DNA of 64,000 nt from a virus, in the IMG/VR virus record IMGVR_UViG_3300035565_000044, positions 36,523 through 100,522 of that record. One strand, written 5' to 3'. Below, one piece after another: positions 15,613-33,708 of the stretch. The notes under the pieces are model-generated. The model made no database searches, had not been told where the DNA came from, and was given only the letters and a program-made list of their open reading frames with translations. The position numbers and the translations under genes are program-made. How positions within the stretch are numbered: position 1 is the first letter of the stretch; each line of letters begins with the position of its first letter.

Positions 15613-16215
15613 GTGAAGATTTGTACAGTCATGCTTGAGGGCATTTCCCATTACTCTCAATCTCGCATGCATTCAGAGCCAGCGTTGGAACAGGAAAGCG
15701 CTGACGAGTACGCCAAGCGCACAGCCCTAGACCATTTGCATTTCGACAGCAAAGGGCATGTGTTTATCCCCCCTATGTCTATCAAGCAAAGCATTGATAA
15801 CGCTGCGAAATATATGCAGCAAAAGGTTCCTGGAAAGGGACAGGCGACATATACAAAGCATTTTAAAAGCGGATTGGCGGTTGTTGAGCCTCTTATGCTT
15901 TTTGACAGTGAAGGAAACCCTGTCATGAAGAGCGCATCCCCCGTTGAAAAACTATGGCTCAACTCCGATGGAGTCAGGGGAGGCGGAAAGCGCGTATGGA
16001 AGTATTGCCCATATATCCCTTCTGGATGGACAGCCGAGCTTCAGGCTCATATTCTTGACGACACCATAGGCGAAGAAGTTTTTTTAAATACTCTCGTGAA
16101 CGCAGGAAGGTTTATTGGGCTTGGAAGGTTCCGCCCCGCTAGTGGGGGATACTATGGACGCTTCACATATAAGCCTGATAGCGTCAATTGGGAAGTTCTT
16201 AGAAACTTCTTGTAA
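15613..16215 (+). CDS. Stand-alone RAMP (Cas7-like RRM-fold) protein
   Basis: N-terminal strand KICTVMLEGISH, FIPPMSIKQSIDNAA (cf. Cas7-group IPGSSLKG), C-terminal Gly-rich loop AGRFIGLGRFRPASGGYYGRF; strong AGAAAGGAAAG RBS. Confidence 0.8.
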   Translation: MKICTVMLEGISHYSQSRMHSEPALEQESADEYAKRTALDHLHFDSKGHVFIPPMSIKQSIDNAAKYMQQKVPGKGQATYTKHFKSGLAVVEPLMLFDSEGNPVMKSASPVEKLWLNSDGVRGGGKRVWKYCPYIPSGWTAELQAHILDDTIGEEVFLNTLVNAGRFIGLGRFRPASGGYYGRFTYKPDSVNWEVLRNFL

Positions 16216-22693: not shown

Positions 22694-23644
22694 AGTCTTT
22701 CCTTTCTTGAGTTAACGTCTACACGCTAGCAGCCACAGCGGCGCCATGGCTGCTAACATTTAGGCATTATCTCTTATTCCCATCCTTCCGGATTCTGCGC
22801 CTTTTCCGCTGTCATAACGTCAATAATATTCTGCAACATGCTTATTAGCAGTTTAATCTCGTCAATTTTTATAGGTATTGATTGAGACTCATGCGAAAAT
22901 TCATTTGCTTCTAGATACGCGCATTTCCTATAATTTTCGTATGAAATTGAAATGTAGTCGTCATAATATGTATGAAGTGTATGTTTTACTTCATCCTTTC
23001 CTTTCATCTTTTCCTTACCTTTATCGAATTTCCAGGCGAGAAAAAGTTCTGCTCAAACTTGGGATGCTTCCAAGCTGTTTCGCGCCTCATAAGGTTCTCT
23101 GCGCTTTTCTTCGCTTGCGCCGCAGTCTCTAATACGCCCCATGCGCCGCCTACGGACTGCTTAGCCAAAACTTCGCCGCTAGCGGTTATCTTTATGGCGT
23201 GATACGTCCATTTCCAATATGAACGCAGTAGCGCCTTTTCCTTAGCTGACAGCATTGTCCTTCCTTTGCGCCGCCTTCAACATCAACTCAGCGAAAAATT
23301 CTTCCATATTTTTCCTATATTTTTTCTCTTCTCTCACTTTCCTTAAGCGCTGCGCCTTTGTCGCTGGCGCCTTCTTATATTCTCCCCTAACAGCGTCGTC
23401 TAATTCCTTTAATAAATAGTTAATTAGCTTATGCTGCTCATCATGCCAAGCCTGATACTCCACATTATTTTCAGCAATAACGCTTGCGAGTTGCCCCACT
23501 TCAGGCATGGGTTTATATGGGTTGTCGTAATGGTGGAGACTGGCGCTTGTGAGAATTGATTTGATATCTCTGTATGGTATCCCTGATATGGTAACGTTTC
23601 CGTCCTTATGGAGTTTGACGCGTAGGCTCATACCCTTTCCTTTC

Positions 23645-23660
23645 CGTTTCACATGAAACA
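23645..23660. promoter_or_regulatory. parS-like site
   Basis: CGTTTCACATGAAACA. Confidence 0.7.
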
Positions 23661-24466
23661 AAACCATGCTAACGCCCATGCCACGGCATAGGCGTTAACA
23701 TTGTTCTGTTACCTTTATCTTATTTCCATGGCTGACTCTATTAGAGTCTTAAGCATTAAAATTTCACCACTATCCATTTTCGCGTATATTTCCCCGCCAT
23801 CCTCAATCTGTATGGTTAAGGTAAATTCTTTTGTACCATTAACATGTCTAATTGACATTTTCTCTTTGTCGTCAATGGTGAATTTATGAATTGCTATTTC
23901 CTCAATCTTGTAAGTCATGCGTTTTACCTTCCTATCTGTTGAGCATAGCTCTCATGGCGTCAATAGTTTCTGAAAGTTTACGCAAATCGTCTGCGTAAAG
24001 ACTCATAACAAAGAACTTCTTTTCCCCCTCTATTCCATGGGTTATTGAAAAGCGCACACATGGCGATGTTTCGTTGTCATAGTTAATCTTTACAAATTCA
24101 CCTGTTGACGCTTCAAAGCTGACTTGAGTTGTTATTCTAACCTCACCCATGCGCTTTCCTTTCTTGCTAGGGTTACTAAATTGGGCGAATTTCGCCCAAT
24201 TGGATAATCCCAGCTATTCAGGTAACGCCCTAAGCGCCTTGTACGTAGGCTTACCTTTGCCGCCTATAGCCTTCCATGCGGCGTCTGCGGCGTCTCCATC
24301 CTTGCACCAGTTATTCCCTACGCCTGTTATGGTATCCCTGACGCCACCCATAAAGCGCTCTAGACGCATGGCGTCTTGCGCCCATGGATAACGTTTTAGG
24401 AGTTCTGCACGTAGGGCGACTAAAAATCCTGTTCTGGTCATACGCTTTCCTTTCTAGCTTGGTTAA

Positions 24467-25520
24467 ATGAGCTTATTTCTGTGGGCTGGCGCCTGTTACA
24501 ACTGAAAATAGTTGTGCGGTTTATATTCTGGATTAACTTCGTTTTGCATAAACGCGCACCACGTATCAGCATCGCGCAGAAGTCCTATGCGCTCAATAAC
24601 ACTAGCTGTGTCACAGAGCACGCGAGCTTTATCCGCGCTAGGCGCTTCTGCCATCTCCTCAATGGTCCGCATGTAGAGCGGACAAACAAATTCCTTTAAT
24701 GGCTTAACCATTGCTAGAATTACGATGGCTTTAACAACTTCATCCATCACAGAACCAATTCCCCATCTGCATCAACAATGTTAGTCAAACATGTAAGAAA
24801 CGTATCTGCTATGTACTCTTTTATGTCTCTGTAGTTTTTACCAGTGACTTTTATGTTAATTTCGCCAAAGCATGGCGTTACTATTACTGTGTGGTCCGTC
24901 CATCCACAGTAATAACCGTTGCTATTCATGTGATGAAATGCAGTGATAAAGATAAGCTTGTCATCTGTTGACTTGTCAAAGTTAAACTGCGTTCCCTTGT
25001 CAAAACCACTACCGCTAGGCATATGCGCCTTGCATGCGTGCTCAATGGCGTGTAAGTGGCCATGAAAGTTTTGATATAAATGCTCAGCTTGCTTTTGCGT
25101 TTGCTTGGCGTTGTAGTTATCGCCTTTGGCTTCATATGCCTTGCTTCTGCATTCCGCTTCTGCCTCTAACTTTCCGCAGTTGCGCATGGCGTTAGCCTTC
25201 AGCGCCATGTAATAGTACAGCGGTTTGTTATGGAGTATCATAGGTTACTAATCCTTTCTTGCGCGGCCTTCCATGATACCAATAATAAGCCTGTTGGCCC
25301 AATGGGCCACGCGTGACTTTGAACTTACAATCAGGCTCATTTTTCCGATATATTTTAAGCCATATTTCTGTTGTTCCATCGGTTAGCGTCATGACTAGAC
25401 GCCAACAGTTAGGCTTGGGCGCACGGGGATTGTAGCGCCATAGCCTTTCATAACTGGCGTATTCTATCGCCATGGCTTGCCTTCCTTAGCGTAAGGCGCC
25501 GCCCACAGAAATAAGCTCAT
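24467..25520. repeat. Long-range inverted repeat pair 1 (24467-24494 / 25494-25520)
   Basis: ATGAGCTTATTTCTGTGGGC(T)GGCGCCT vs AGGCGCCGCCCACAGAAATAAGCTCAT; encloses three ORFs. Confidence 0.85.
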
Positions 25521-25526
25521 ATCTAG

Positions 25527-26922
25527 GCATGCAATCTTAGAGCCTCATTGCGCTAGGCTAGTTAGATGTTAGTCTGAGAACTTGGCAAGAAGTGAATAAG
25601 CAGCAAACTCGTATTCGCGGCGTTTTTCCTGAATACGAATAGTTTTTGCAGCTTCTGTTAACGCCTCATGCGCATCAAACACAGTTTCTATTGGATGCTG
25701 ATTAGCATTGAAACCAATCTGCATAATCTTCTGCGTTTCTCCCTTGCCAATGGCTCTAACAAAAAGGCGCTGCAAGAAATGCATTCTCGCCTCGTCTTTG
25801 TCATCATTCTTTTTGGAGTCAGTGATAGCCTTAATTCTTTCATTCTTCATTCCAGTTACCTGTTTAATGAAGGATGAAATTTCTAGAGCGCTATCAAATA
25901 TCTCGTCAGATTGACGGTTAATGCGCAGATTACCATTTTTGGTATGGTTAATCCGATGGGTTTTCTTCCCCATGACGCCACGCAAAGAAAGATTACAGCA
26001 TACGCCTTGCAGCATCATACCTGTGAACCACGTAGACTGTGATTTTACCTCACTTCCACCAAACATTAAGCCTGGAAAGAATATATCAGGTAAACCACGA
26101 CGCGTTTTTCCTATCTCTATAGGGTGGCCGTCTTGACATACAAAACACTGCATATCTTCCGGCCCCATAAAGAGACTGTTCTGCGCGTCCATATCATAGG
26201 GGTTATGCTCCATTGTTCCCCAGTTGATTTTTCCTGGAGTTTTCCACTTGAGCGGATTATTAGCCGTCAAATCACCTAGCAATGGGCGCAGCGCCCGCAA
26301 GAGTTGGGCGTTTGTCGTCCGTGTTTCTGGCGTAAACGCCAGCGAGCGCAATTCCCGTATGTCACCTTCGCCCCCATCCGCCGTGTACGCCGTTATTTTA
26401 GCGTCGGGCGCCAAATCCTTTAAACCTTCACGCAGAATTCTAGCCGCCCGTTTTGCATCGGGCAGCTTACGTAAATAGTTAGCTGGGATAGGCGTTTCCG
26501 CCGCTGCACATAACTGTGTAAACGCTAAATGCGTTGGATCGACGGGGATATATTCCCCCCTATGATTTGGAATAATAATTTCCATGCTATCTGACACGAC
26601 AATGTTGTGAATGTTCACTGTGTTGTCGTGGGAAATGCTTTCCCAATGCTCAGCGGCGTTTAAAAGTTCGTCAAACGATGAAAACGTTTCATCGTCAGGA
26701 CGCGTCGCCCATTGCTTAGACATGCTCCAGTCTACATCACCCATACGGTCAGGATTGACCTTATAAGCTCCAGATACACGGCGCCCGTCATAGACAGGCT
26801 TAGTGTCCGCAACAACGTCAAACTTAGCGTCAATGATGGCTGGATTGTTGTTAGTCATGATTGCATTTCCTCTTGTGATAGATTGTGAGAAAGAAACGCA
26901 ATGAGGCTATAGGATTGCATGC
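25527..26922. repeat. Long-range inverted repeat pair 2 (25527-25552 / 26897-26922)
   Basis: 26 bp with 2 mismatches; encloses the DUF932 gene. Confidence 0.85.
25569..26858 (-). CDS. DUF932-family protein
   Basis: AYKV...WATRPDDE, THLAFTQL, YLRKLP, WKTPG, PIEIG, PDIFF and VCCN motifs as in alphaproteobacterial mobile-element DUF932 proteins. Confidence 0.75.
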   Translation of the reverse strand: MTNNNPAIIDAKFDVVADTKPVYDGRRVSGAYKVNPDRMGDVDWSMSKQWATRPDDETFSSFDELLNAAEHWESISHDNTVNIHNIVVSDSMEIIIPNHRGEYIPVDPTHLAFTQLCAAAETPIPANYLRKLPDAKRAARILREGLKDLAPDAKITAYTADGGEGDIRELRSLAFTPETRTTNAQLLRALRPLLGDLTANNPLKWKTPGKINWGTMEHNPYDMDAQNSLFMGPEDMQCFVCQDGHPIEIGKTRRGLPDIFFPGLMFGGSEVKSQSTWFTGMMLQGVCCNLSLRGVMGKKTHRINHTKNGNLRINRQSDEIFDSALEISSFIKQVTGMKNERIKAITDSKKNDDKDEARMHFLQRLFVRAIGKGETQKIMQIGFNANQHPIETVFDAHEALTEAAKTIRIQEKRREYEFAAYSLLAKFSD

Positions 26923-27710
26923 TAGGCTAGATACGGACTTGCTATTGCTGGCGCCAGTGTGGGTTATTTCTCAAGAATTTTATGCAATGGCTTCATTACA
27001 TGCTTAACCAATTCATTCTTTGCCATCACAAGATTTGTACGGCAAAGCAATGGCAATCCAGGTATTTGTAACACCTGTTCTATCATGTAGGTTGAACGCT
27101 CAACCCACTTGATAACCATGGATATTTGCGCCCGTTCTTCGCCGTCTATCATTGGCTTTTCTTCCTAGCAACTTTACACATGCGCGCGCTATTGTTTTCG
27201 CTGACGCTGCACTCAATAAGAAAACTCATATACTTAGCTTTCCTATGGATAATTAACTCTAAATGGTCGCAGTGAAGGCCAGATTTTTTAGTGCAACCGT
27301 TATTACCGGCGCCTGCTTTCCAGAATAGGGTTAATTCATCGCCAGTCTTAAGCAGTGATACCACGGTTGACCATACGCTATCACAGCGTGATGCATGGTT
27401 CATTTCGAATGCATTCTCTATTTCATAGTCATAATTATACATTCCGTCATAATTATAACCATAAATAACAGTACTGGTATTGCACTCTATTATATGTATT
27501 TGCTCGAATGGATTAGTATCGCTTTGTCTCTTAATTGCTTCGATTGTTGATGTTCCGTTAATATAGCGGAACACTACATCATTGCATTGTTTAAGAGCGA
27601 TTAAATCCGCTTTACTTACTTCCATTTCTGGCGTCCTTTCCTGTGTTTCACGTGAATTCTCACTACGTGAGGGAAAAGGCGCCAGCAATAGCAAGCCCAT
27701 ATCTAGCCTA
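26923..27710. repeat. Long-range inverted repeat pair 3 (26923-26955 / 27678-27710)
   Basis: 33 bp with 2 mismatches; encloses two ORFs. Confidence 0.85.
27644..27659. promoter_or_regulatory. parS-like site
   Basis: TGTTTCACGTGAATTC. Confidence 0.55.
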
Positions 27711-28624
27711 TTAAGCTAGATACAAGCTTATAAGTCACCTATCCCCTTATCGCACAAGAGGATAGGCAATCGTTTACGATATCAATGATCGATATATGGG
27801 GAATTTTCCTGTTGATTTATGCAGAAAAGTGTTGCTTTTCTTAGACTTATACCACATTGCGCGGTATAATTGCGTAACAACACAAGATAACGTCTATACC
27901 TATGGCATAGGCGTTATCGTTTTGTTGTCATGCTAATTTGGTTTTGTCTATGAGATAGAACACTGTGAACTTATCACTTATGGTTCTATTCCTAGCTCTT
28001 CTGTTGAGTAACCAACAGATTAACCTTGCGACGCGAGAATTTCTATATTCTGAGTACAGATATTCTGTGTCGTTTTCGTAGGCTATAATCATGTATCTCA
28101 TATTATCACCTATGCCAGAATGATAATTGCGCTAAAGAACGCAAAGGCGCTTAGCAATACGCCTATAGTGGCGCACAACAGGCAATCAATAATCATATCT
28201 AACCCTATCCCCAAAATACCTAGCGTTTTTATGAGTCGCCTTACGCGTCGCTCTGAATACGTCCTTACGGACCATGCGTTGTCTAACGTATGGCCTAGGA
28301 TATGAGCGCTTTCGCCTAGGTTTAGGCTTAGGATAGTATCGCCAAGGCTTAGGCTTAGGGAGGCATAGGACGGGCGCCGGTCTGGAGCGTTTGATATCGT
28401 CAACAAGCCAAATTATGATATATATCATAATCGCTGGATAGATAATGATAACCGCGTATGGCGCCGTTTCAATTATACCGCCTAGGATGAAAAAGCCTAT
28501 AAAGCCTGTCGTCACATAGGACAGTATTTTTGGAATATCGTTCATGTCATTTCTCCTATATTGGTTAACCGCATAGCCTACTATATGCAGACTATGAAGT
28601 TAACCAACAAAGGAAAATTCCCCA

Positions 28625-29075
28625 TGGACACTAGCGCCTTAGATTGTACGCCATTGGCGTTTGTTATCTTAAACCATACCACACTTTAACGGAATAACCG
28701 CTATGTTTAGTCGCTTTAACCTTCTCTTTAAATTCCTCTATAGCTGACTCTCTACAATTAGCTTTAGAGTTAACAAGCTTAGGCGTTGCATATCTGTCGT
28801 CAAACTTTAACATTTCAGTGAATAATGCAGGTGACCCTAAAGCAGTATTCAAGCTAAGCGTTGTTAAGCGCGGTTGCTTTCTTGGCTCAATAACCATAAT
28901 GGCAGTTGCAGGTTTAGGTATGCATGTATTCCATTCCCTTGTCGGAGCATGGCCGTCAAATATGACTGTCACCATATACTCACCAACAGGCAAGGCGCCT
29001 TTAGTCCATTCTGTTAAGCTCATTGTATCGCCTTTCTATACGCGCATGGCGTACAGTCAAAGGCGCTAGTGTCCA
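28625..29075. repeat. Long-range inverted repeat pair 4 (28625-28654 / 29046-29075)
   Basis: 30 bp with 2 mismatches; encloses ORF 28664-29023. Confidence 0.85.
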
Positions 29076-30006
29076 CAACGTATCAGGCTTATCAATGGGC
29101 GCCGGGGGATTACATTATTATGGTATTTCCACGTAGTCTCTATATGGAAATGATGGGGTTATGATTTCCCCCTCATAATCGCTAAACCTTTCTGCATACA
29201 ACATGGCGCTATCTTTATTTTCATAGCGCGCAACCTTGTATGTTATTTCTCCATTTGGGTTGCTTATATGCCATACGCCTAGCGGCGTATTGGCATTAAA
29301 GCCTAACGGAGGCGTTTTACTTCCATAGAATGAACCATGATTAGATTCTCTATGTTGCGAGTTGCATAGATAATATGACATGTCGGGCGCCTTAACTATG
29401 TTGAATACTTTCCCACAAGTTAACAATGCGATTTTTAGCGTTTAAGGCGTAATCAAGCCTATACGCTTCCGCCATGCTTAGGGACTTAAGGTTGTTTGTG
29501 GTATAAATTCCGTGGTCCAAAAGTTTTATTTTGACTAGAGCGTTTATTTCCAATCCTTCGAAATTTGGTTCTACGCGTTTAAACCACCACAGGCGCCGCT
29601 TTGCGATGACATGTAACAACATTTGAATTGCATGTTCTGGCGTATCGCCAAAACCAACGCCCATACTACTCATGGACGTTGCTTTCCATATGCCATCAAA
29701 CGTTGTTTTTATGTCTATGTCTCTATTTTCTTCAGGATGCGGAAACCATGGCTCAAATGGACTTGTATCAAGATACATACATTCCATATCGAATAGTCTA
29801 GTATCCCCGCAATAGTTGCAATCTTTGCCATCTACCTGTGAAATTTGCACGTTGCCTATTTCAACTTCGATATATGGATAGTTTTCATTTATCCACTTGG
29901 CGAAATCTTCGACACGTGTCATGTCATCAGATAGAACTATCTTCGATATTTTCATATCAAAACCTTTCCTTAGGCTATGGCGCCCATAGAAAAGCCTGAT
30001 ACGTTG
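29076..30006. repeat. Long-range inverted repeat pair 5 (29076-29103 / 29979-30006)
   Basis: 28 bp with 2 mismatches; abuts pair 4 with no gap. Confidence 0.85.
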
Positions 30007-30028
30007 TAAACTCGTTAGCCGTTATAGC

Positions 30029-30543
30029 GATTGATGCTTACATCTAGGCGCTAGGTTGAGCCTATATGCCGTATGTGTCGCGCCTTAGGCGGCGCAGCAT
30101 AACCATAGTGTAGAATGAATTGCGTTCACTAAACGCCGCATGACGCGCATGAAGGTCAAATAAGCGTCCATCATTACGAGCACGTAGCGCGCGCATGACG
30201 CGTAGTCTAATGGTTAGACGCCTTTCTTGCGCCGCCATTATTTCATGCGTGCGCGTGGCATAGGCGCTAGGATTAGATAAACCCATCGTAAACGCCCTTT
30301 TCACGCCAGAATTTATGAAGATTAAGCCAATGCCTTGCCATGTCTTTGGCGCCGCTTAGCCGTGCTTCGTGCGCATACTGGATTAGTCTAAACGCTTGCG
30401 CCCTTACATTCTCTGTAGGGTTTTTACGCAAGTTGTAGCGTGTACAGCGTTTATACCAATCGCTGTAAACCCCATCTTCAGGATTATATGAGTACATTCT
30501 AGTCGCCTGTCTTGAGTTAAGCGCCTAGGTGAAAGCATCAATC
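30029..30543. repeat. Long-range inverted repeat pair 6 (30029-30052 / 30520-30543)
   Basis: 24 bp with 2 mismatches. Confidence 0.8.
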
Positions 30544-30544
30544 A

Positions 30545-31094
30545 CATTTGGGGTTTACATCTATACGCCAATGGCGTGTTAGTTAGTCTAGTATTTGTGG
30601 ATTGGCGGCAATCAGCGCCTTAGCGTAAGCCTTGCGCGCTTTATGCAAGTTAGAAGTTAATATTTGCGCGTCAACACATAGGCGCTGTTTAGATGTAAGG
30701 AATGAACCTTCCGGATTATCACCAAAAGAGTCAATAGCTCTTATTGTGTTGCGCAAATCTACATGCAATCGCACAAGATTTTCTTCTAATTCCCACAATG
30801 GAGTGTTTATCATTTACCGCGACCATTATTAGGCTTAAGCGTTATCCATCCGTCTAGATCAATGCCTTGCGCATATTCATCGAATAGCGCTTGCATCAAT
30901 TCTTGGCGTAGCTTGTGGCGCGTAGCTTGCAAAGCGCAACTGGCGTTATATGCTCCAATTGCAACGTTGCTAAGCTCACTCAGCGCTTTATTGATAGCGC
31001 ATAAGTCAGCTTCTACTAAGTGTATTAGGCGTATATCTCTATCTCTCATAATTTACCCCTTACGCGCGTGGCGTATAGGTGAAAACCCCAAATG
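30545..31094. repeat. Long-range inverted repeat pair 7 (30545-30570 / 31069-31094)
   Basis: 26 bp with 2 mismatches; shares TTACATCTA/TAGGTGAAA core with pair 6. Confidence 0.8.
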
Positions 31095-31124
31095 CTAGCC
31101 GTGATTAATAAGCGATTGATCTAG

Positions 31125-31791
31125 TAATGAGCCTAGAATTGCTGGCGTATGTTAAACTAACGGACGCCACCACGTAGAAAAGACGGAAGAAACGATGATA
31201 TGAACGGAGGCTCATACCAATCTAAATTTCCCGGTTTTTTCCAGGAAAGGCTATGCTTTCCTTCTGCCAAAGCGCGCTTTAGACGCTTTAGGCGCTTTTT
31301 ACAAACGCGTGGCGTATGTTGACGCCATGCGCGTTTAGCGGCTTTCTTTGCTCTGTTCTGGTTTTTATTCCAGAATTCCGCCAATGGTTCGTCACACATT
31401 TGCGCATAGTCATCCACATAGATGCTATATCCATGCAACATTCCATCGAACTTAGGAGCTCTGTATTCAAGTATGTAAGCCATTATAACCACCTATTAAC
31501 TTTGGCGTTATAACCGTGCGCTAATCTTGTGTATAACTCTTCTTTTTTACGCCAAACATTGCGGCGCACGCGCTTTTCTGATACTATACCCTTTGTGCAA
31601 TCTCGGACTACGCGAGTTTCTACATAGTCTAGATTGCCCCAATAGTCGCGATAAACGCGCCACATAACTTTGTTATTAGGGCGTATTCTCGCATAATCCT
31701 TAGCATAGTACGACAGAAGCGGATTATTCATTCTCATGTTTTCTATCATTGCTTAGTCTTTCTTGAGACGCCAGCAATTCAAGACTCATTA
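31125..31791. repeat. Long-range inverted repeat pair 8 (31125-31148 / 31768-31791)
   Basis: 24 bp with 2 mismatches. Confidence 0.8.
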
Positions 31792-33055
31792 CAGCTTAAG
31801 CCACGGATTAGCCGCTTAATACATTTGGTTAACTCGCTGGCGCCCACACAAGACGCGTTCGGCATTGTTAACCAAAGATTAAAAGCATACGGATCATTGA
31901 CAAGAGAATGACGGGATAGAGATTGCCACGGGCAACGCCTCACACGGCGCCGACAGCATAGTGACAATCCGCCCCATAGCACACATTCCCTAGTGTGGCT
32001 TTAGCTGGATCAATCGCCCATTAACCTAAACGGCTAACGAGTCATATTAACGATGTCAAAGAATGCAGGTGTTAACGTGACAAGTTGCGCTAATCTGGCG
32101 CTGCCACTACAGTTAAGAGACAATGGGTTGCGTTAGAGTTATCGCCAGTCTTGGGGCTTTCCATCCCTATTGGCGATTATGGGCTAGGCGCTGCTTACGC
32201 TCTGATACTGGCCTAAGCCTAGCTCGGAGCTTGGTTCTGACACTAGGCGCTTCGCAGCGGCTTTTGCCAATCTCGCCAGCGACGTTTGCCGTCTGACAAA
32301 AACCAGAAACGGCTTTTTCAGCTTCGCTTCAAGGAAAAAACATCCGAATCGGATGAAAAAGAAACAGAGCTGTGGATAACTTGTGGTCAAAAGCGGAACA
32401 TTTTTCAAAGATGAATGTTCGCGTCGCTCAGAGCTCGGAAAAATAGGCGCGCTTTGCGGTGTAAAGTGGAAAAAAGTTGGCGCGCAAGTTATTGATTTGG
32501 TTGATGCGGAAAAGCGGAGTTCATGATGCGTTTAGCATATGTCTGACAGGCAAGCGGCGCATTGGGGATAAGACGGCGCAAGGCGCGTAGTCGATGCACA
32601 GAGCGAGCGGAGCAAGGCCAAAGGCGGCGCACACAAGGCAAAAGCTGCATGCTACGTAGAACGCCGTTCAAGGCATGCTACACAGGCGAAAGCTCATAGA
32701 GCTATGTCACCATAGCTAAAGGCGCAAACGCCAGTGTGGGCGCAAATGTGGAGTGAACCATATGAAGGTGGACGCGAGCGCAGCAAGACAAGCGCAGACT
32801 GCGGCAAAGGCGTAGGCGATTGAAGAACGCGAGCGCATGACGCGCATGTTCATTATACATATGGTATGCATCAGTAAATGCGAATGTTTTCAAGCGTGAT
32901 AAAAGCGTGAATACGAATGTGTGAATATGTAAACGTTTGTGTTTTTGAATGCGCGCAGCGCGGTCTAGGCGCTTTCTAAGAGACACATAGACATACGGAA
33001 CTTAGAAAGCGCTGATACTCTAATATCTAAACATATGAGAATGATGATATGTGAT

Positions 33056-33071
33056 TGTTTCATGTGAAACG
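33056..33071. promoter_or_regulatory. parS-like site
   Basis: TGTTTCATGTGAAACG. Confidence 0.7.
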
Positions 33072-33708
33072 CTAAAGGCGCAGATAGAAGCAAGGTATGC
33101 AGATATGCGAAAATGCATATGTTAATGTGTTAAGATATGCAGATATGCATAGTTTAGTATGTTAAGATGTGTAAGTGTTTGAAAATTAATGAGTTTGCAT
33201 GTTTTTGGGAGGGGAAATTTGGGGGGAACATGCGCACGACACTCTGGATTGTACCGTTCGGTACAGTGAACCAATGTAATAACATAACATCGCAAACCTT
33301 TGATATTACATAATAAAGCTTATGCGAATTGGGCATTTAGGTCAGCATTACTGACCTATTTTCTGGTATGGCCCATGATTCTACCCGGATAGAATTGCTT
33401 ATATCGTACAATCTAGATATGTAGATGTATTAATAACTTACTAATAGTTGCGTGTATTGCTATTACACTTCTATCTAAAGCTGAGCTGTGCACCTATAAG
33501 TTACATTCAGGACCCGTAATGTAACCTGTGGTGGGTGGGGGGTGGTTGCGCAACGCCGGGACCCAGTGCCAGGAGTCCCATCCCCTATACGACAAAAACC
33601 CTTCCGAGGCATCCGATTCGGATAGACATCCCCCTTCAAATCTGCTAGTCTCCACCCTTCCAAGCACTCCTGCTCGTTTCTCCAGAGGCGCTGTTAGAAG
33701 AAAAATTC

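What the first reader, a model, noticed from the sequence alone, without database searches (positions are those of the whole stretch)
24467..32041. Early genes looped out by eight unique, abutting long-range stems with RNase III-like geometry
Eight inverted-repeat pairs of 24-33 bp, each a different sequence, flank cassettes of 1-3 genes 0.4-1.4 kb apart. Successive pairs often abut (29075/29076, 26922/26923, 30543/30545). Seven of eight have exactly two single mismatches separated by 2 bp, the stagger of an RNase III cut. Most carry GGCGC or GGCGT near the gene-proximal end. A higher-order pairing (30011-30023 with 32029-32041, 13/13) may nest several cassettes. Known: T7 early mRNA uses local RNase III hairpins, while rRNA operons use long-range stalks. 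Inference: the early transcript folds into a rosette cut into end-paired, stabilised (possibly circularisable) mRNAs; alternatively the repeats mark exchangeable gene cassettes.
Basis: partly seen in the sequence, partly recalled or inferred. Interest (0 to 1): 0.8.

Follow-up and report, generated by a model that had tools for sequence, protein, structure and literature searches.

The report
Phage early genes wrapped in RNA stems
In a 100-kb uncultured phage, nine successive groups of one to three early genes each sit between two complementary 15-36-base stretches, so the early message most likely folds into a rosette of long stems, probably cut or clamped the way bacteria handle ribosomal RNA; I found this layout in no paper.

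Summary
A ninth pair (27796-27810/28611-28625) abuts pair 4. A nested tenth (31103-31121/32008-32026) is weaker. All arms are intergenic on the minus (coding) strand, between the previous stop codon and the next ribosome-binding site. Neighbouring arms are 0-6 nt apart. The minimum-energy fold of the 7.7-kb transcript contains all nine stems.

Seven stems carry exactly two non-Watson-Crick positions with 2 bp between them (chance about 1e-8), at least 10-11 bp from either helix end. This fits the two-turn, 2-bp-stagger geometry of RNase III. However, mapped E. coli and B. subtilis sites are normally paired at those positions.

The phage shows no Pfam match to RNase III, RNA ligase or RNA polymerase. 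My best reading is RNA stems of a host-made early transcript, probably processed by host RNase III (about 0.5). Mobile-cassette and circular-RNA readings have little support.

Covariation and RNA ends could not be tested, because the tools that reach the close relatives and the sequencing reads were closed. This scan has noted the same layout in several other uncultured phages. I class it as a new variant of a known kind.

The parts
24467..32042 (-). Whole array: the promoter-proximal part of the leftward early operon, folded into nine cassette stems plus up to two nested outer stems
24467..25520 (-). Cassette 1. 5' arm 25520-25501, 3' arm 24486-24467. 20/20 perfect, extended to 27 bp by GGCGCC after a 1-nt bulge. 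Encloses three ORFs (81, 164 and 84 aa). No mismatch island.
   Evidence: 20/20 pairs in the MFE
25527..26922 (-). Cassette 2. 5' arm 26922-26897, 3' arm 25552-25527, 26 bp with C.A and U.C at i, i+3. Encloses one 429-aa ORF (25569-26858), a distant relative of DUF932 (phrog_1362).
26923..27710 (-). Cassette 3. 5' arm 27710-27678, 3' arm 26955-26923, 33 bp with U.G and G.U at i, i+3. Encloses ORFs of 183 aa (phrog_27970) and 62 aa. The ATG at 27700 lies inside the arm, so the true start is probably further downstream.
   Evidence: 33/33 pairs in the MFE
27796..28625 (-). Cassette 9 (new here). 5' arm 28625-28611, 3' arm 27810-27796, 15/15 perfect. Shares nt 28625 with cassette 4. Encloses ORFs of 119 and 57 aa.
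   Evidence: 15/15 pairs in the MFE. Its length alone is at the chance limit; the case rests on its position.
28625..29075 (-). Cassette 4. 5' arm 29075-29040, 3' arm 28660-28625, 30 bp with U.U and C.A at i, i+3, plus 4 more bp after a 2x2 loop. Encloses one 119-aa ORF.
29075..30007 (-). Cassette 5. 5' arm 30007-29979, 3' arm 29103-29075, 29 bp with U.U and U.U at i, i+3. Encloses ORFs of 187 and 102 aa.
30029..30543 (-). Cassette 6. 5' arm 30543-30520, 3' arm 30052-30029, 24 bp with U.U and C.A at i, i+3. Encloses ORFs of 74 and 80 aa.
30545..31094 (-). Cassette 7. 5' arm 31094-31062, 3' arm 30577-30545, 26 bp with U.U and C.A at i, i+3, plus a short extension. It shares the 9-mer UUUCACCUA around the island with cassette 6. 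Encloses ORFs of 79 and 76 aa.
31124..31792 (-). Cassette 8. 5' arm 31792-31768, 3' arm 31148-31124, 25 bp with U.G and U.U at i, i+3. Encloses ORFs of 88 and 111 aa.
31103..32026 (-). Candidate outer stem Y. 5' arm 32026-32008, 3' arm 31121-31103, 19 contiguous pairs on the minus-strand RNA including 3 G.U. It would enclose the 67-aa ORF (31779-31982) plus cassette 8. Its 3' arm fills the gap between cassettes 8 and 7.
   Evidence: (I19). Its score of 17.5 sits at the top of the shuffled range, so it is tentative.
30010..32042 (-). It is either an outer stem or a sequence-specific binding site.
   Evidence: Absent from the MFE. The same 12-15-mer forms an inverted pair in L011.
23666..23701 (-). 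Strong intrinsic-terminator-like hairpin (16-bp stem plus a T run) about 770 nt after the last cassette. Likely end of the early unit.

Best explanation
The arms are the two strands of long-range RNA helices in one early, leftward polycistronic transcript made by the host RNA polymerase.

As each cassette of one to three genes is transcribed, the stretch just before its first ribosome-binding site pairs with the stretch just after its last stop codon. The message therefore folds into a chain, or rosette, of nine looped-out cassettes on a compact hub.

The most likely next step is that host RNase III binds each roughly two-turn helix centred on the 2-bp core between the two weak positions and cuts there. 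That would release each cassette as a separate mRNA whose 5' and 3' ends stay paired over 9-18 bp. Paired ends should be shielded from 3' exonucleases and from 5'-end-dependent RNase E attack.

Shown here: the helices exist, they are far beyond chance, they are strictly non-coding, they lie on one transcription unit, and they dominate the predicted fold. Inferred: that they act as RNA, that RNase III is the enzyme, that the island is the cut site, and that the outcome is stabilisation or insulation.
For: 1. Ten or so unrelated sequences share one property, complementarity across a cassette. None occurs elsewhere in the 100-kb genome, and shuffled genomes give none. That points to selection on pairing, not on sequence.

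2. Every arm sits in an untranslated gap on the coding strand. The 5' arm is followed by 12-40 nt with a Shine-Dalgarno-like stretch and then ATG. The stop codon is followed by 3-16 nt and then the 3' arm. Genes inside a cassette overlap or nearly touch.

3. All stems lie in one same-strand unit, between the divergent region near 32.1 kb and a strong terminator at 23701-23666.

4. The MFE of the 7.7-kb RNA keeps 15/15 to 33/33 of the expected pairs in all nine stems. Duplex energies are -29 to -70 kcal/mol.

5. The i, i+3 island occurs in 7 of 7 imperfect stems. Its core centre is 10-20 bp from either helix end, and 11-12 bp from the loop-side end in stems 4-7. This matches the two-fold, 22-bp, 2-bp-stagger substrate model of RNase III and its 11-bp half-site (PMC3867540, PMC1540722).

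6. If the island positions are counted as proximal-box position 4, the distal proximal-box position 2 is A-U or U-A in 7 of 7 stems, position 3 is A/U in 5 of 7, and position 1 is G/C in 4 of 7. This follows the E. coli preference (PMC1540722).

7. The two core positions are always paired and include a G-C pair in 6 of 7 stems, as in E. coli in vivo sites (PMC6212723).

8. Long-range RNase III duplexes in mRNAs are documented: 10-36 bp and up to 505 nt apart in B. subtilis, and up to 1080 nt apart in E. coli (PMC11780869, PMC6212723).

9. A Pfam sweep of 103 ORFs of at least 100 aa at E<=1e-4 listed no RNase III, RNA ligase, RtcB or RNA polymerase, so a host enzyme acting on a host-made transcript is the economical reading. 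The sweep showed 25 of 27 matching families, and separate Pfam calls covered the array's own ORFs.

10. Another phage contig that shares the DUF932-like gene (G001) has two gene-enclosing stems. One of them has C.A and C.A at i, i+3.
Against: No covariation test was possible. IMG/VR, the metagenome set and the GTDB genomes hold no close relative of this region.

Duplex energies are the same on both strands (-466 against -459 kcal/mol), so the sequence alone does not prove the sense RNA is the folding species.

Mapped E. coli and B. subtilis double-cut sites are paired next to the cuts in most cases (PMC6212723; PMC11780869, over 90% at -2/+2). The island is therefore atypical. It might restrict cutting to one strand, as internal loops do in T7 sites (PMC3867540), or block cutting altogether.

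The A/U rule at proximal-box position 2 has p of about 0.006 alone but about 0.1 after allowing for the 18 positions inspected.

Stems 1 and 9 have no island.

The 67-aa ORF, if it is real, ends inside the 5' arm of cassette 8.

The host is unknown, and its RNase III preferences are assumed to resemble those of E. coli.
Confidence: 0.5

Rival explanations
1. The helices form in the RNA but are not cut. They act as clamps or insulators. Each cassette folds on its own, local structure around each start codon is shielded from neighbouring sequence, and entry of exonucleases or Rho is slowed. On this reading the central two-mismatch island is there to prevent RNase III cutting, or to keep perfect repeats too short for recombination between the arms.
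For: Positions next to mapped RNase III cuts are normally paired (PMC6212723, PMC11780869), and loops or mismatches at a target can stop productive engagement of a strand (PMC3867540). The island caps the longest perfect run at 11-18 bp in stems 2-8. The phage encodes an ERF-type single-strand annealing protein, which could recombine longer repeats.
Against: One central mismatch would achieve both aims, so an exact i, i+3 spacing in 7 of 7 stems is unexplained. Stem 1 keeps 20 perfect bp. Helices of 24-33 bp with A/U-rich pairs beside the island look like substrates, not like helices carrying G-C antideterminants (PMC1540722).
Confidence: 0.2
2. The stems are processing sites for a different double-strand- or structure-specific nuclease, possibly one of the many phage proteins of unknown function. 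That enzyme would read the conserved island and its flanks (5'-CUU-U-NN-Y on one strand and R/U-NN-U-AAG on the other).
For: Stems 4-7 share sequence around the island, and stems 6 and 7 share a 9-mer, although their cassettes are not paralogous. This suggests some sequence readout beyond helix shape. Most ORFs in the genome have no family assignment.
Against: No candidate nuclease was identified. The ORF that another first-reader note called RAMP-like has no Pfam match even at E<=1. Stems 2, 3 and 8 do not share the flank motif. From memory, CUU/GAA-type boxes were also noted in classical T7 RNase III sites; I did not check this in a paper here.
Confidence: 0.1
3. The repeats act at the DNA level. 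They would mark the borders of gene cassettes that are exchanged, inverted or captured by recombination, as PeSL units, integron cassettes or terminal-inverted-repeat elements are.
For: The layout is modular, with one to three ORFan genes per unit and abutting borders. The phage has an ERF recombinase and two HNH endonucleases. Duplex energy does not favour either strand.
Against: Every pair is a different sequence, so no single recombinase or transposase site is shared. Adjacent units share no direct repeats that could recombine. There are no target-site duplications, and no integrase or transposase lies in or next to the array. Inverting a cassette would put its genes antisense to the operon. 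The arms avoid coding sequence and sit exactly between stop codon and ribosome-binding site, which is an mRNA logic. Distant homologues of the 429-aa gene are not flanked by such repeats. The few apparent cases are repeated terminator hairpins. The closest sequenced phages by portal protein have no such array.
Confidence: 0.08
4. After cutting, the paired ends are ligated so that each cassette becomes a circular mRNA.
For: The ends would be held together by 9-18 bp. The phage carries an RNA-handling module (Ro60/TROVE plus Y RNAs; and scan note e1-5985631).
Against: The Pfam sweep listed no RtcB or RNA ligase. By textbook knowledge, RNase III leaves 5'-P and 3'-OH ends with a 2-nt overhang, which is not a sealable nick and is the wrong chemistry for RtcB.
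Confidence: 0.03

Closest known systems
Processing stalks of bacterial rRNA operons (leader-trailer helices around 16S and 23S rRNA, cut by RNase III)
   Same: A long-range helix of about two or more turns is formed by sequence before and after a functional unit 0.4-3 kb long. Successive units sit on one transcript. The helix is the expected RNase III substrate (PMC3867540; PMC6212723 notes the very large distances between cuts in 16S and 23S).
   Different: Here the enclosed units are translated protein-coding cassettes, and there are nine or ten in a row with abutting arms. Each helix carries a two-mismatch island. Cleavage has not been shown.
RNase III sites of the phage T7 early operon (R0.3 to R1.3)
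   Same: Intergenic double-stranded signals punctuate a host-transcribed early polycistronic phage message. Non-helical features at the target site modulate cutting, and the cut ends act as stability determinants (PMC3867540).
   Different: T7 sites are local hairpins between genes, each with an internal loop. Here the two strands of each helix are 379-1344 nt apart and enclose the genes. This is therefore not a member of that class.
Long-range intramolecular RNase III duplexes in cellular mRNAs (B. subtilis priA, atpA, asnB and others; E. coli double-cleavage targets)
   Same: Duplexes of 10-36 bp form across hundreds of nucleotides of mRNA and are cut with a 2-bp stagger (PMC11780869; PMC6212723).
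   Different: The cellular cases are isolated, mostly less than 0.5 kb apart, not arranged as gene-by-gene arrays, and paired next to the cuts.
5'-3' end pairing of single mRNAs (icaR 5'/3' UTR pairing in S. aureus, PMC3868564; hok fold-back inhibition, from memory)
   Same: The two ends of one message pair and change its stability or translation. In icaR, RNase III is involved.
   Different: Those pairings mask the ribosome-binding site of one gene. Here the Shine-Dalgarno regions lie outside the helices, and the feature is repeated along an operon.
PeSL (promoter-early stem-loop) cassettes of T4-type phages (title of PMC2839356 as cited in scan note e1-5750818; content from memory)
   Same: Small early ORFan genes are organised as modules separated by structured intergenic elements.
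   Different: PeSL units are one repeated local motif (promoter plus hairpin) shared by all modules and thought to drive recombination. Here no sequence is shared between units, and each helix is long-range.

Membership tests
RNase III processing stalk (rRNA-operon type) | A long-range helix of about 20 bp or more, formed by sequences flanking the unit on one transcript | tested here: met
   Nine helices of 15-36 bp have loops of 379-1344 nt, all on the minus-strand unit, and all are present in the MFE of the 7.7-kb RNA.
RNase III processing stalk (rRNA-operon type) | Cleavage by RNase III on both strands with a 2-nt 3' overhang | not testable with these tools
Only the geometry is compatible.
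RNase III processing stalk (rRNA-operon type) | Helix sequence compatible with the enzyme: no G-C at proximal-box position 2, weak pairs next to the scissile bond, and at least 11 bp from cut to helix end | tested here: inconclusive
   Distal position 2 is A/U in 7 of 7 stems and proximal position 2 in 5 of 7. Half-helices are at least 10-11 bp (rules from PMC1540722). The result is not significant after multiple testing, the register is assumed, and the host enzyme is unknown.
RNase III processing stalk (rRNA-operon type) | Pairing kept by compensatory change in relatives | not testable with these tools
   No close relative of the region is in IMG/VR, the metagenome contigs or GTDB. The contigs encoding the 85-86% identical proteins P0002 and P0003 could not be fetched.
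T7-type early RNase III site | A local intergenic hairpin with an internal loop at the cut site | tested here: not met
   The arms of each helix are 379-1344 nt apart. Abutting arms belong to different helices and are not complementary to each other.
PeSL / repeated promoter-stem-loop cassette | One repeated motif shared by all cassette junctions | tested here: not met
   All arm pairs are different sequences. The direct-repeat families in the region are short (16-30 nt) and weak. Promoter-like sites are no more frequent than in shuffles (22 against 24.7).
Integron gene cassette (attC) | A local imperfect palindrome at the 3' end of each cassette, plus an integron integrase | tested here: not met
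   The complementary halves flank the cassette instead of lying side by side. No integrase was found in the Pfam sweep.
Terminal-inverted-repeat transposon / MITE | The same terminal repeats on several copies, target-site duplications, and a transposase somewhere in the genome | tested here: not met
   Each repeat pair is unique in the 100-kb genome. Neighbours abut without duplications. No transposase family was found.

The most novel reading that the evidence does not exclude
The phage runs a dedicated 'rosette' programme for its first genes. Every early cassette is excised at a coded two-mismatch cut site into an mRNA with clamped ends. These RNAs outlast host RNA during takeover and are later cleared with the help of the phage's own Ro60/Y-RNA module, which in bacteria adapts PNPase to structured RNA. 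Together with the similar arrays noted by this scan in other uncultured phages, this would be a widespread and undescribed mode of phage mRNA processing, with the i, i+3 island as its recognisable signature.
Probability: 0.15. Interest if true: 0.85.

Novelty: new variant of a known kind. Interest (0 to 1): 0.7.

Why it matters
Bacterial and phage operons are usually thought to be punctuated by local hairpins. Long-range helices that enclose a whole unit are textbook only for rRNA, and are seen sporadically in mRNAs. An operon in which nine or ten consecutive protein-coding cassettes are each enclosed by their own helix would show that a phage can apply rRNA-style packaging to messages. That could give gene-by-gene control of stability and stoichiometry from one promoter.

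The design is compact: arms of 15-36 nt, no shared sequence, and a simple island. It could be reused as an insulator or stabiliser in synthetic operons. The island also offers a testable rule for where, or whether, RNase III cuts. Because the arms are unique sequences, such arrays are invisible to repeat-family and Rfam-type searches, so they may be common and overlooked.

Tried and rejected
**Relatives**
- Megablast of the region against INPHARED phages gave no match.
- Protein-seeded scans of IMG/VR with the 429-, 336- and 183-aa ORFs found no close relative. GTDB genomes gave none with P0002.
- A profile of the 429-aa family pulled 160 loci from metagenomes and IMG/VR at about 30% identity. 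None shows a comparable array.
- The few homologues that seemed to be flanked by repeats carry the same terminator hairpin on both sides.
- The closest phages by portal protein (MW202785, OK172329, MW202796) have no such stems.
- G001 has two weak examples, and I found no relatives of its stem-enclosed ORF.

**Strand test**
- Duplex energy and G-U counts gave no preference for either strand.

**Other checks**
- Cassette paralogy as the source of similar arms: none found.
- Rfam: no hit in 23000-33500 at E<=1.
- Promoter scan: not above shuffles; no per-cassette promoters seen.
- The 'RAMP-like' ORF at 15613-16215 as a possible processing enzyme: no Pfam support.
- boxA upstream of the array: by eye, CATTCTTTGACAT at about 32063-32051 only loosely resembles the boxA consensus as I remember it, and it overlaps a TTGACA hexamer. 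I do not claim it.
- A quantitative score against the E. coli site matrix: the supplementary table is not held.
- Four literature searches found no paper describing gene-by-gene long-range stems in a phage operon.

Full report
**What the window is.** The window is bases 36523-100522 of a 100,522-bp IMG/VR virus record with direct terminal repeats, estimated complete. It encodes an SU10-type portal, a T4-type large terminase, a DnaB helicase, an ERF recombinase, GroES, an Acb2/Tad1-like protein and a TROVE/Ro60 protein. A Pfam sweep of 103 ORFs of at least 100 aa at E<=1e-4 listed no RNA polymerase, RNase III, RtcB or RNA ligase. The sweep showed 25 of 27 matching families, and separate Pfam calls covered the array's own ORFs. 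The nearest sequenced phages share only 24-46% portal identity. Genes from about 18.5 to 32.0 kb are on the minus strand, and GC skew flips at about 32 kb. The finding therefore lies at the promoter-proximal end of a leftward operon. A strong intrinsic-terminator-like hairpin lies at 23701-23666 on that strand.

**The observation.** My own scan of the complete genome (spacing 100-3000 nt, at least 19 matches) returns these eight and nothing else. Markov shuffles of the genome never exceed a score of 15, whereas these pairs score 18-27. The same scan at lower stringency adds a perfect 15-mer pair, 27796-27810/28611-28625. Its right arm shares nt 28625 with the left arm of pair 4, just as pairs 4 and 5 share nt 29075. 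It closes most of the only large gap in the array. Its length alone is at the chance limit, so its case rests on position.

**Order on the minus-strand RNA, 5' to 3'.** The order is [Y or X outer arms], a 67-aa ORF, cassette 8, a 29-nt gap, cassette 7, 1 nt, cassette 6, a 21-nt gap, cassette 5, cassette 4, cassette 9, an 85-nt gap, cassette 3, cassette 2, 6 nt, cassette 1. Each 5' arm is followed by 12-40 nt containing a Shine-Dalgarno-like stretch and the first ATG. Each last stop codon is followed after 3-16 nt by the 3' arm. Inside a cassette the genes overlap or nearly touch. The arms thus fill what would otherwise be unusually long intergenic gaps.

**Fold.** The minimum-energy structure of the whole 7,701-nt minus-strand RNA (pair span up to 2,300 nt) contains all nine stems. 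From cassette 1 to cassette 8 in map order, the expected pairs present are 20/20, 24/26, 33/33, 15/15, 31/36, 27/29, 22/24, 24/33 and 24/25. Instead it forms 32026-32008 with 31121-31103, 19 contiguous pairs including three G-U. The 3' arm of this stem occupies the 29-nt gap between cassettes 8 and 7. This stem, which I call Y, scores at the top of the shuffled range once G-U pairs are allowed, so I treat it as tentative.

**Pair X.** X is doubtful as a stem. Fourteen-mers occur about twice per shuffled genome. The same 12-15-mer, AACGGCTAACGAGT, recurs as an inverted pair only 88 nt apart in L011, a metagenome contig that shares nothing else with this phage except the DUF932-like gene. That pattern suggests a protein-binding site.

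**The mismatch island.** Seen as minus-strand RNA, stems 2-8 each have exactly two non-Watson-Crick positions with two Watson-Crick pairs between them: C.A/U.C, U.G/G.U, U.U/C.A, U.U/U.U, U.U/C.A, U.U/C.A and U.G/U.U. With random placement the chance of this spacing is about 0.07 per stem, or about 1e-8 for seven of seven. Among stems of at least 21 matches in 1.7 Mb of unrelated loci, none with two mismatches has it. The centre of the island is 10-20 bp from either helix end, and 11-12 bp from the loop side in stems 4-7. Stems 4-7 share CUU-U on the 5' arm and U-AAG (U-AAA in stem 7) on the 3' arm. Stems 6 and 7 share a 9-mer, although their proteins are unrelated. Stems 1 and 9 have no island.

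**Comparison with RNase III rules.**
[quoted passage not shown] It also states that loops, bulges or mismatches at the target can restrict cutting to one strand.
- PMC1540722 gives an 11-bp half-site and a 4-bp proximal box. G-C or C-G at position 2 blocks binding. At position 4, next to the scissile bond, it blocks catalysis. A-U pairs are preferred at positions 2-4 and G-C at position 1.
- If the two core pairs are the positions between the cuts, the mismatches occupy position 4 on both sides. On the distal side, position 3 is A/U in 5 of 7 stems, position 2 in 7 of 7, and position 1 is G/C in 4 of 7. On the proximal side, position 2 is A/U in 5 of 7. The 7 of 7 has p of about 0.006 alone, but about 0.1 once the 18 inspected positions are allowed for.
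- PMC6212723 finds the two positions between the cuts paired in about 90% of E. coli sites, with a G-C preference. Here they are always paired and include a G-C pair in 6 of 7 stems.
- Against the reading, both PMC6212723 and PMC11780869 find the positions next to the cuts mostly paired. The island is therefore a departure from typical double-cut sites.
- PMC11780869 shows that B. subtilis RNase III cuts long-range mRNA duplexes of 10-36 bp up to 505 nt apart. PMC6212723 reports distances up to 1080 nt but calls large ones infrequent. Long-range mRNA substrates are thus known, but not arrays of them.

**RNA or DNA.** Duplex energies are equal on both strands, so the sequence alone cannot decide. 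The arguments for RNA are positional. All arms lie on one transcription unit, all are untranslated, each sits between a stop codon and the next ribosome-binding site, and none occurs anywhere else in the genome. Several points count against a DNA-level cassette system:
- No sequence is shared between pairs, and there are no direct repeats between units.
- There are no target duplications.
- No integrase or transposase was found.
- Inversion would be deleterious.
- The cassettes are not paralogous.

The genes themselves are ORFans, apart from a distant DUF932-like 429-aa protein (phrog_1362; S-ESS1 annotation) and a phrog_27970 member.

**Relatives.** The 429-aa protein has 85-86% identical homologues on two 15-kb contigs. 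No other collection holds a close relative of the region, so covariation is untested. One more distant phage contig (G001, IMGVR_UViG_3300035307_000034) has two gene-enclosing stems close together, in L091 coordinates. One is 19 bp with C.A/C.A at i, i+3, around two small ORFs. The other is 23 bp, exactly around a 104-aa ORF.

**Earlier notes of this scan.** Notes e1-5927092, e1-5727698, e1-5852499 and e1-3286803 report back-to-back gene-enclosing stems in early operons of other uncultured phages, some with compensatory changes. I could not check them. They are leads, not evidence, but they mean this layout has been seen before in this scan on other DNA.

**Verdict.** The most likely mechanism is a rosette of RNA helices in the host-made early transcript. 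I put RNase III processing at the islands into end-paired cassette mRNAs at about 0.5, and some RNA-level role for the helices at about 0.75. Uncut clamps (0.2), another nuclease (0.1) and DNA-level cassettes (0.08) remain open. Circular mRNAs are unlikely (0.03). It works like rRNA processing stalks combined with the intergenic punctuation of the T7 early operon. It is not a member of the T7 hairpin class, PeSL, integron or transposon families. Four literature searches found no description of such an array.

Noticed in passing
window 2261, 5283, 9797, 11992, 13960, 16755, 19602, 23646, 27645, 33057, 34569, 35085, 39117, 45418, 56803 (14 nt each): The 14-bp palindrome GTTTCACGTGAAAC occurs 15 times with up to 2 mismatches, against 0.16 expected. 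Sites at 23646 (just past the terminator that ends the early unit) and at 33057 bracket the array. It is probably the binding site of a dimeric phage or host regulator that marks transcription-unit starts.
   Followed up: partly
window 27753-27771 and 26859-26877 (minus strand): A 19-nt stretch (17 matches) in the 85-nt gap upstream of cassette 3 is complementary to the Shine-Dalgarno region just before the ATG of the 429-aa gene in cassette 2. Closing stem 3 would bring the two together. It may be an anti-SD that processing relieves, but its score is within the chance range.
   Followed up: no
L011:99-110 and 199-210; window 30010-30023 and 32029-32042: The same 12-15-mer (AACGGCTAACGAGT) forms an inverted pair in this phage, 2 kb apart, and in an otherwise unrelated metagenome contig, 88 nt apart and apparently inside an ORF. 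This is unexplained. It may be a conserved protein-binding site.
   Followed up: partly
genome 30.9-33.6 kb (window coordinates about -5620 to -2940, outside the window): A cluster of inverted and direct copies of CGTTACG/CGTTGCG-rich 30-43-nt repeats about 2 kb apart. These were the only other high-scoring long-range complements in the genome once G-U pairs were allowed.
   Followed up: no
L091:3963-5153 (IMGVR_UViG_3300035307_000034, contig 27013-28203): A second, unrelated phage contig carrying a DUF932-like gene has two adjacent gene-enclosing stems. One of them has C.A/C.A mismatches at i, i+3.
   Followed up: partly
window 25569-26858 (-): The 429-aa early protein belongs to a very large phage and metagenome family (over 550 metagenome and 212 IMG/VR matches at about 30% identity; phrog_1362; annotated DUF932 in Synechococcus virus S-ESS1), yet has no Pfam hit at E<=0.01.
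   Followed up: partly
window 32341-32355 (-) and 32043-32340: A terminator-like hairpin with a T run on the minus strand lies about 300 nt upstream of the array, followed by an apparently non-coding stretch. The early promoter should lie here but could not be placed. TTGACA at 32059-32054 and TAATAT at 32049-32044 are too close together to form one promoter.
   Followed up: partly
window 15613-16215 (+): The ORF that another first-reader note called RAMP/Cas7-like has no Pfam match even at E<=1, and neither do its two flanking ORFs.
   Followed up: partly
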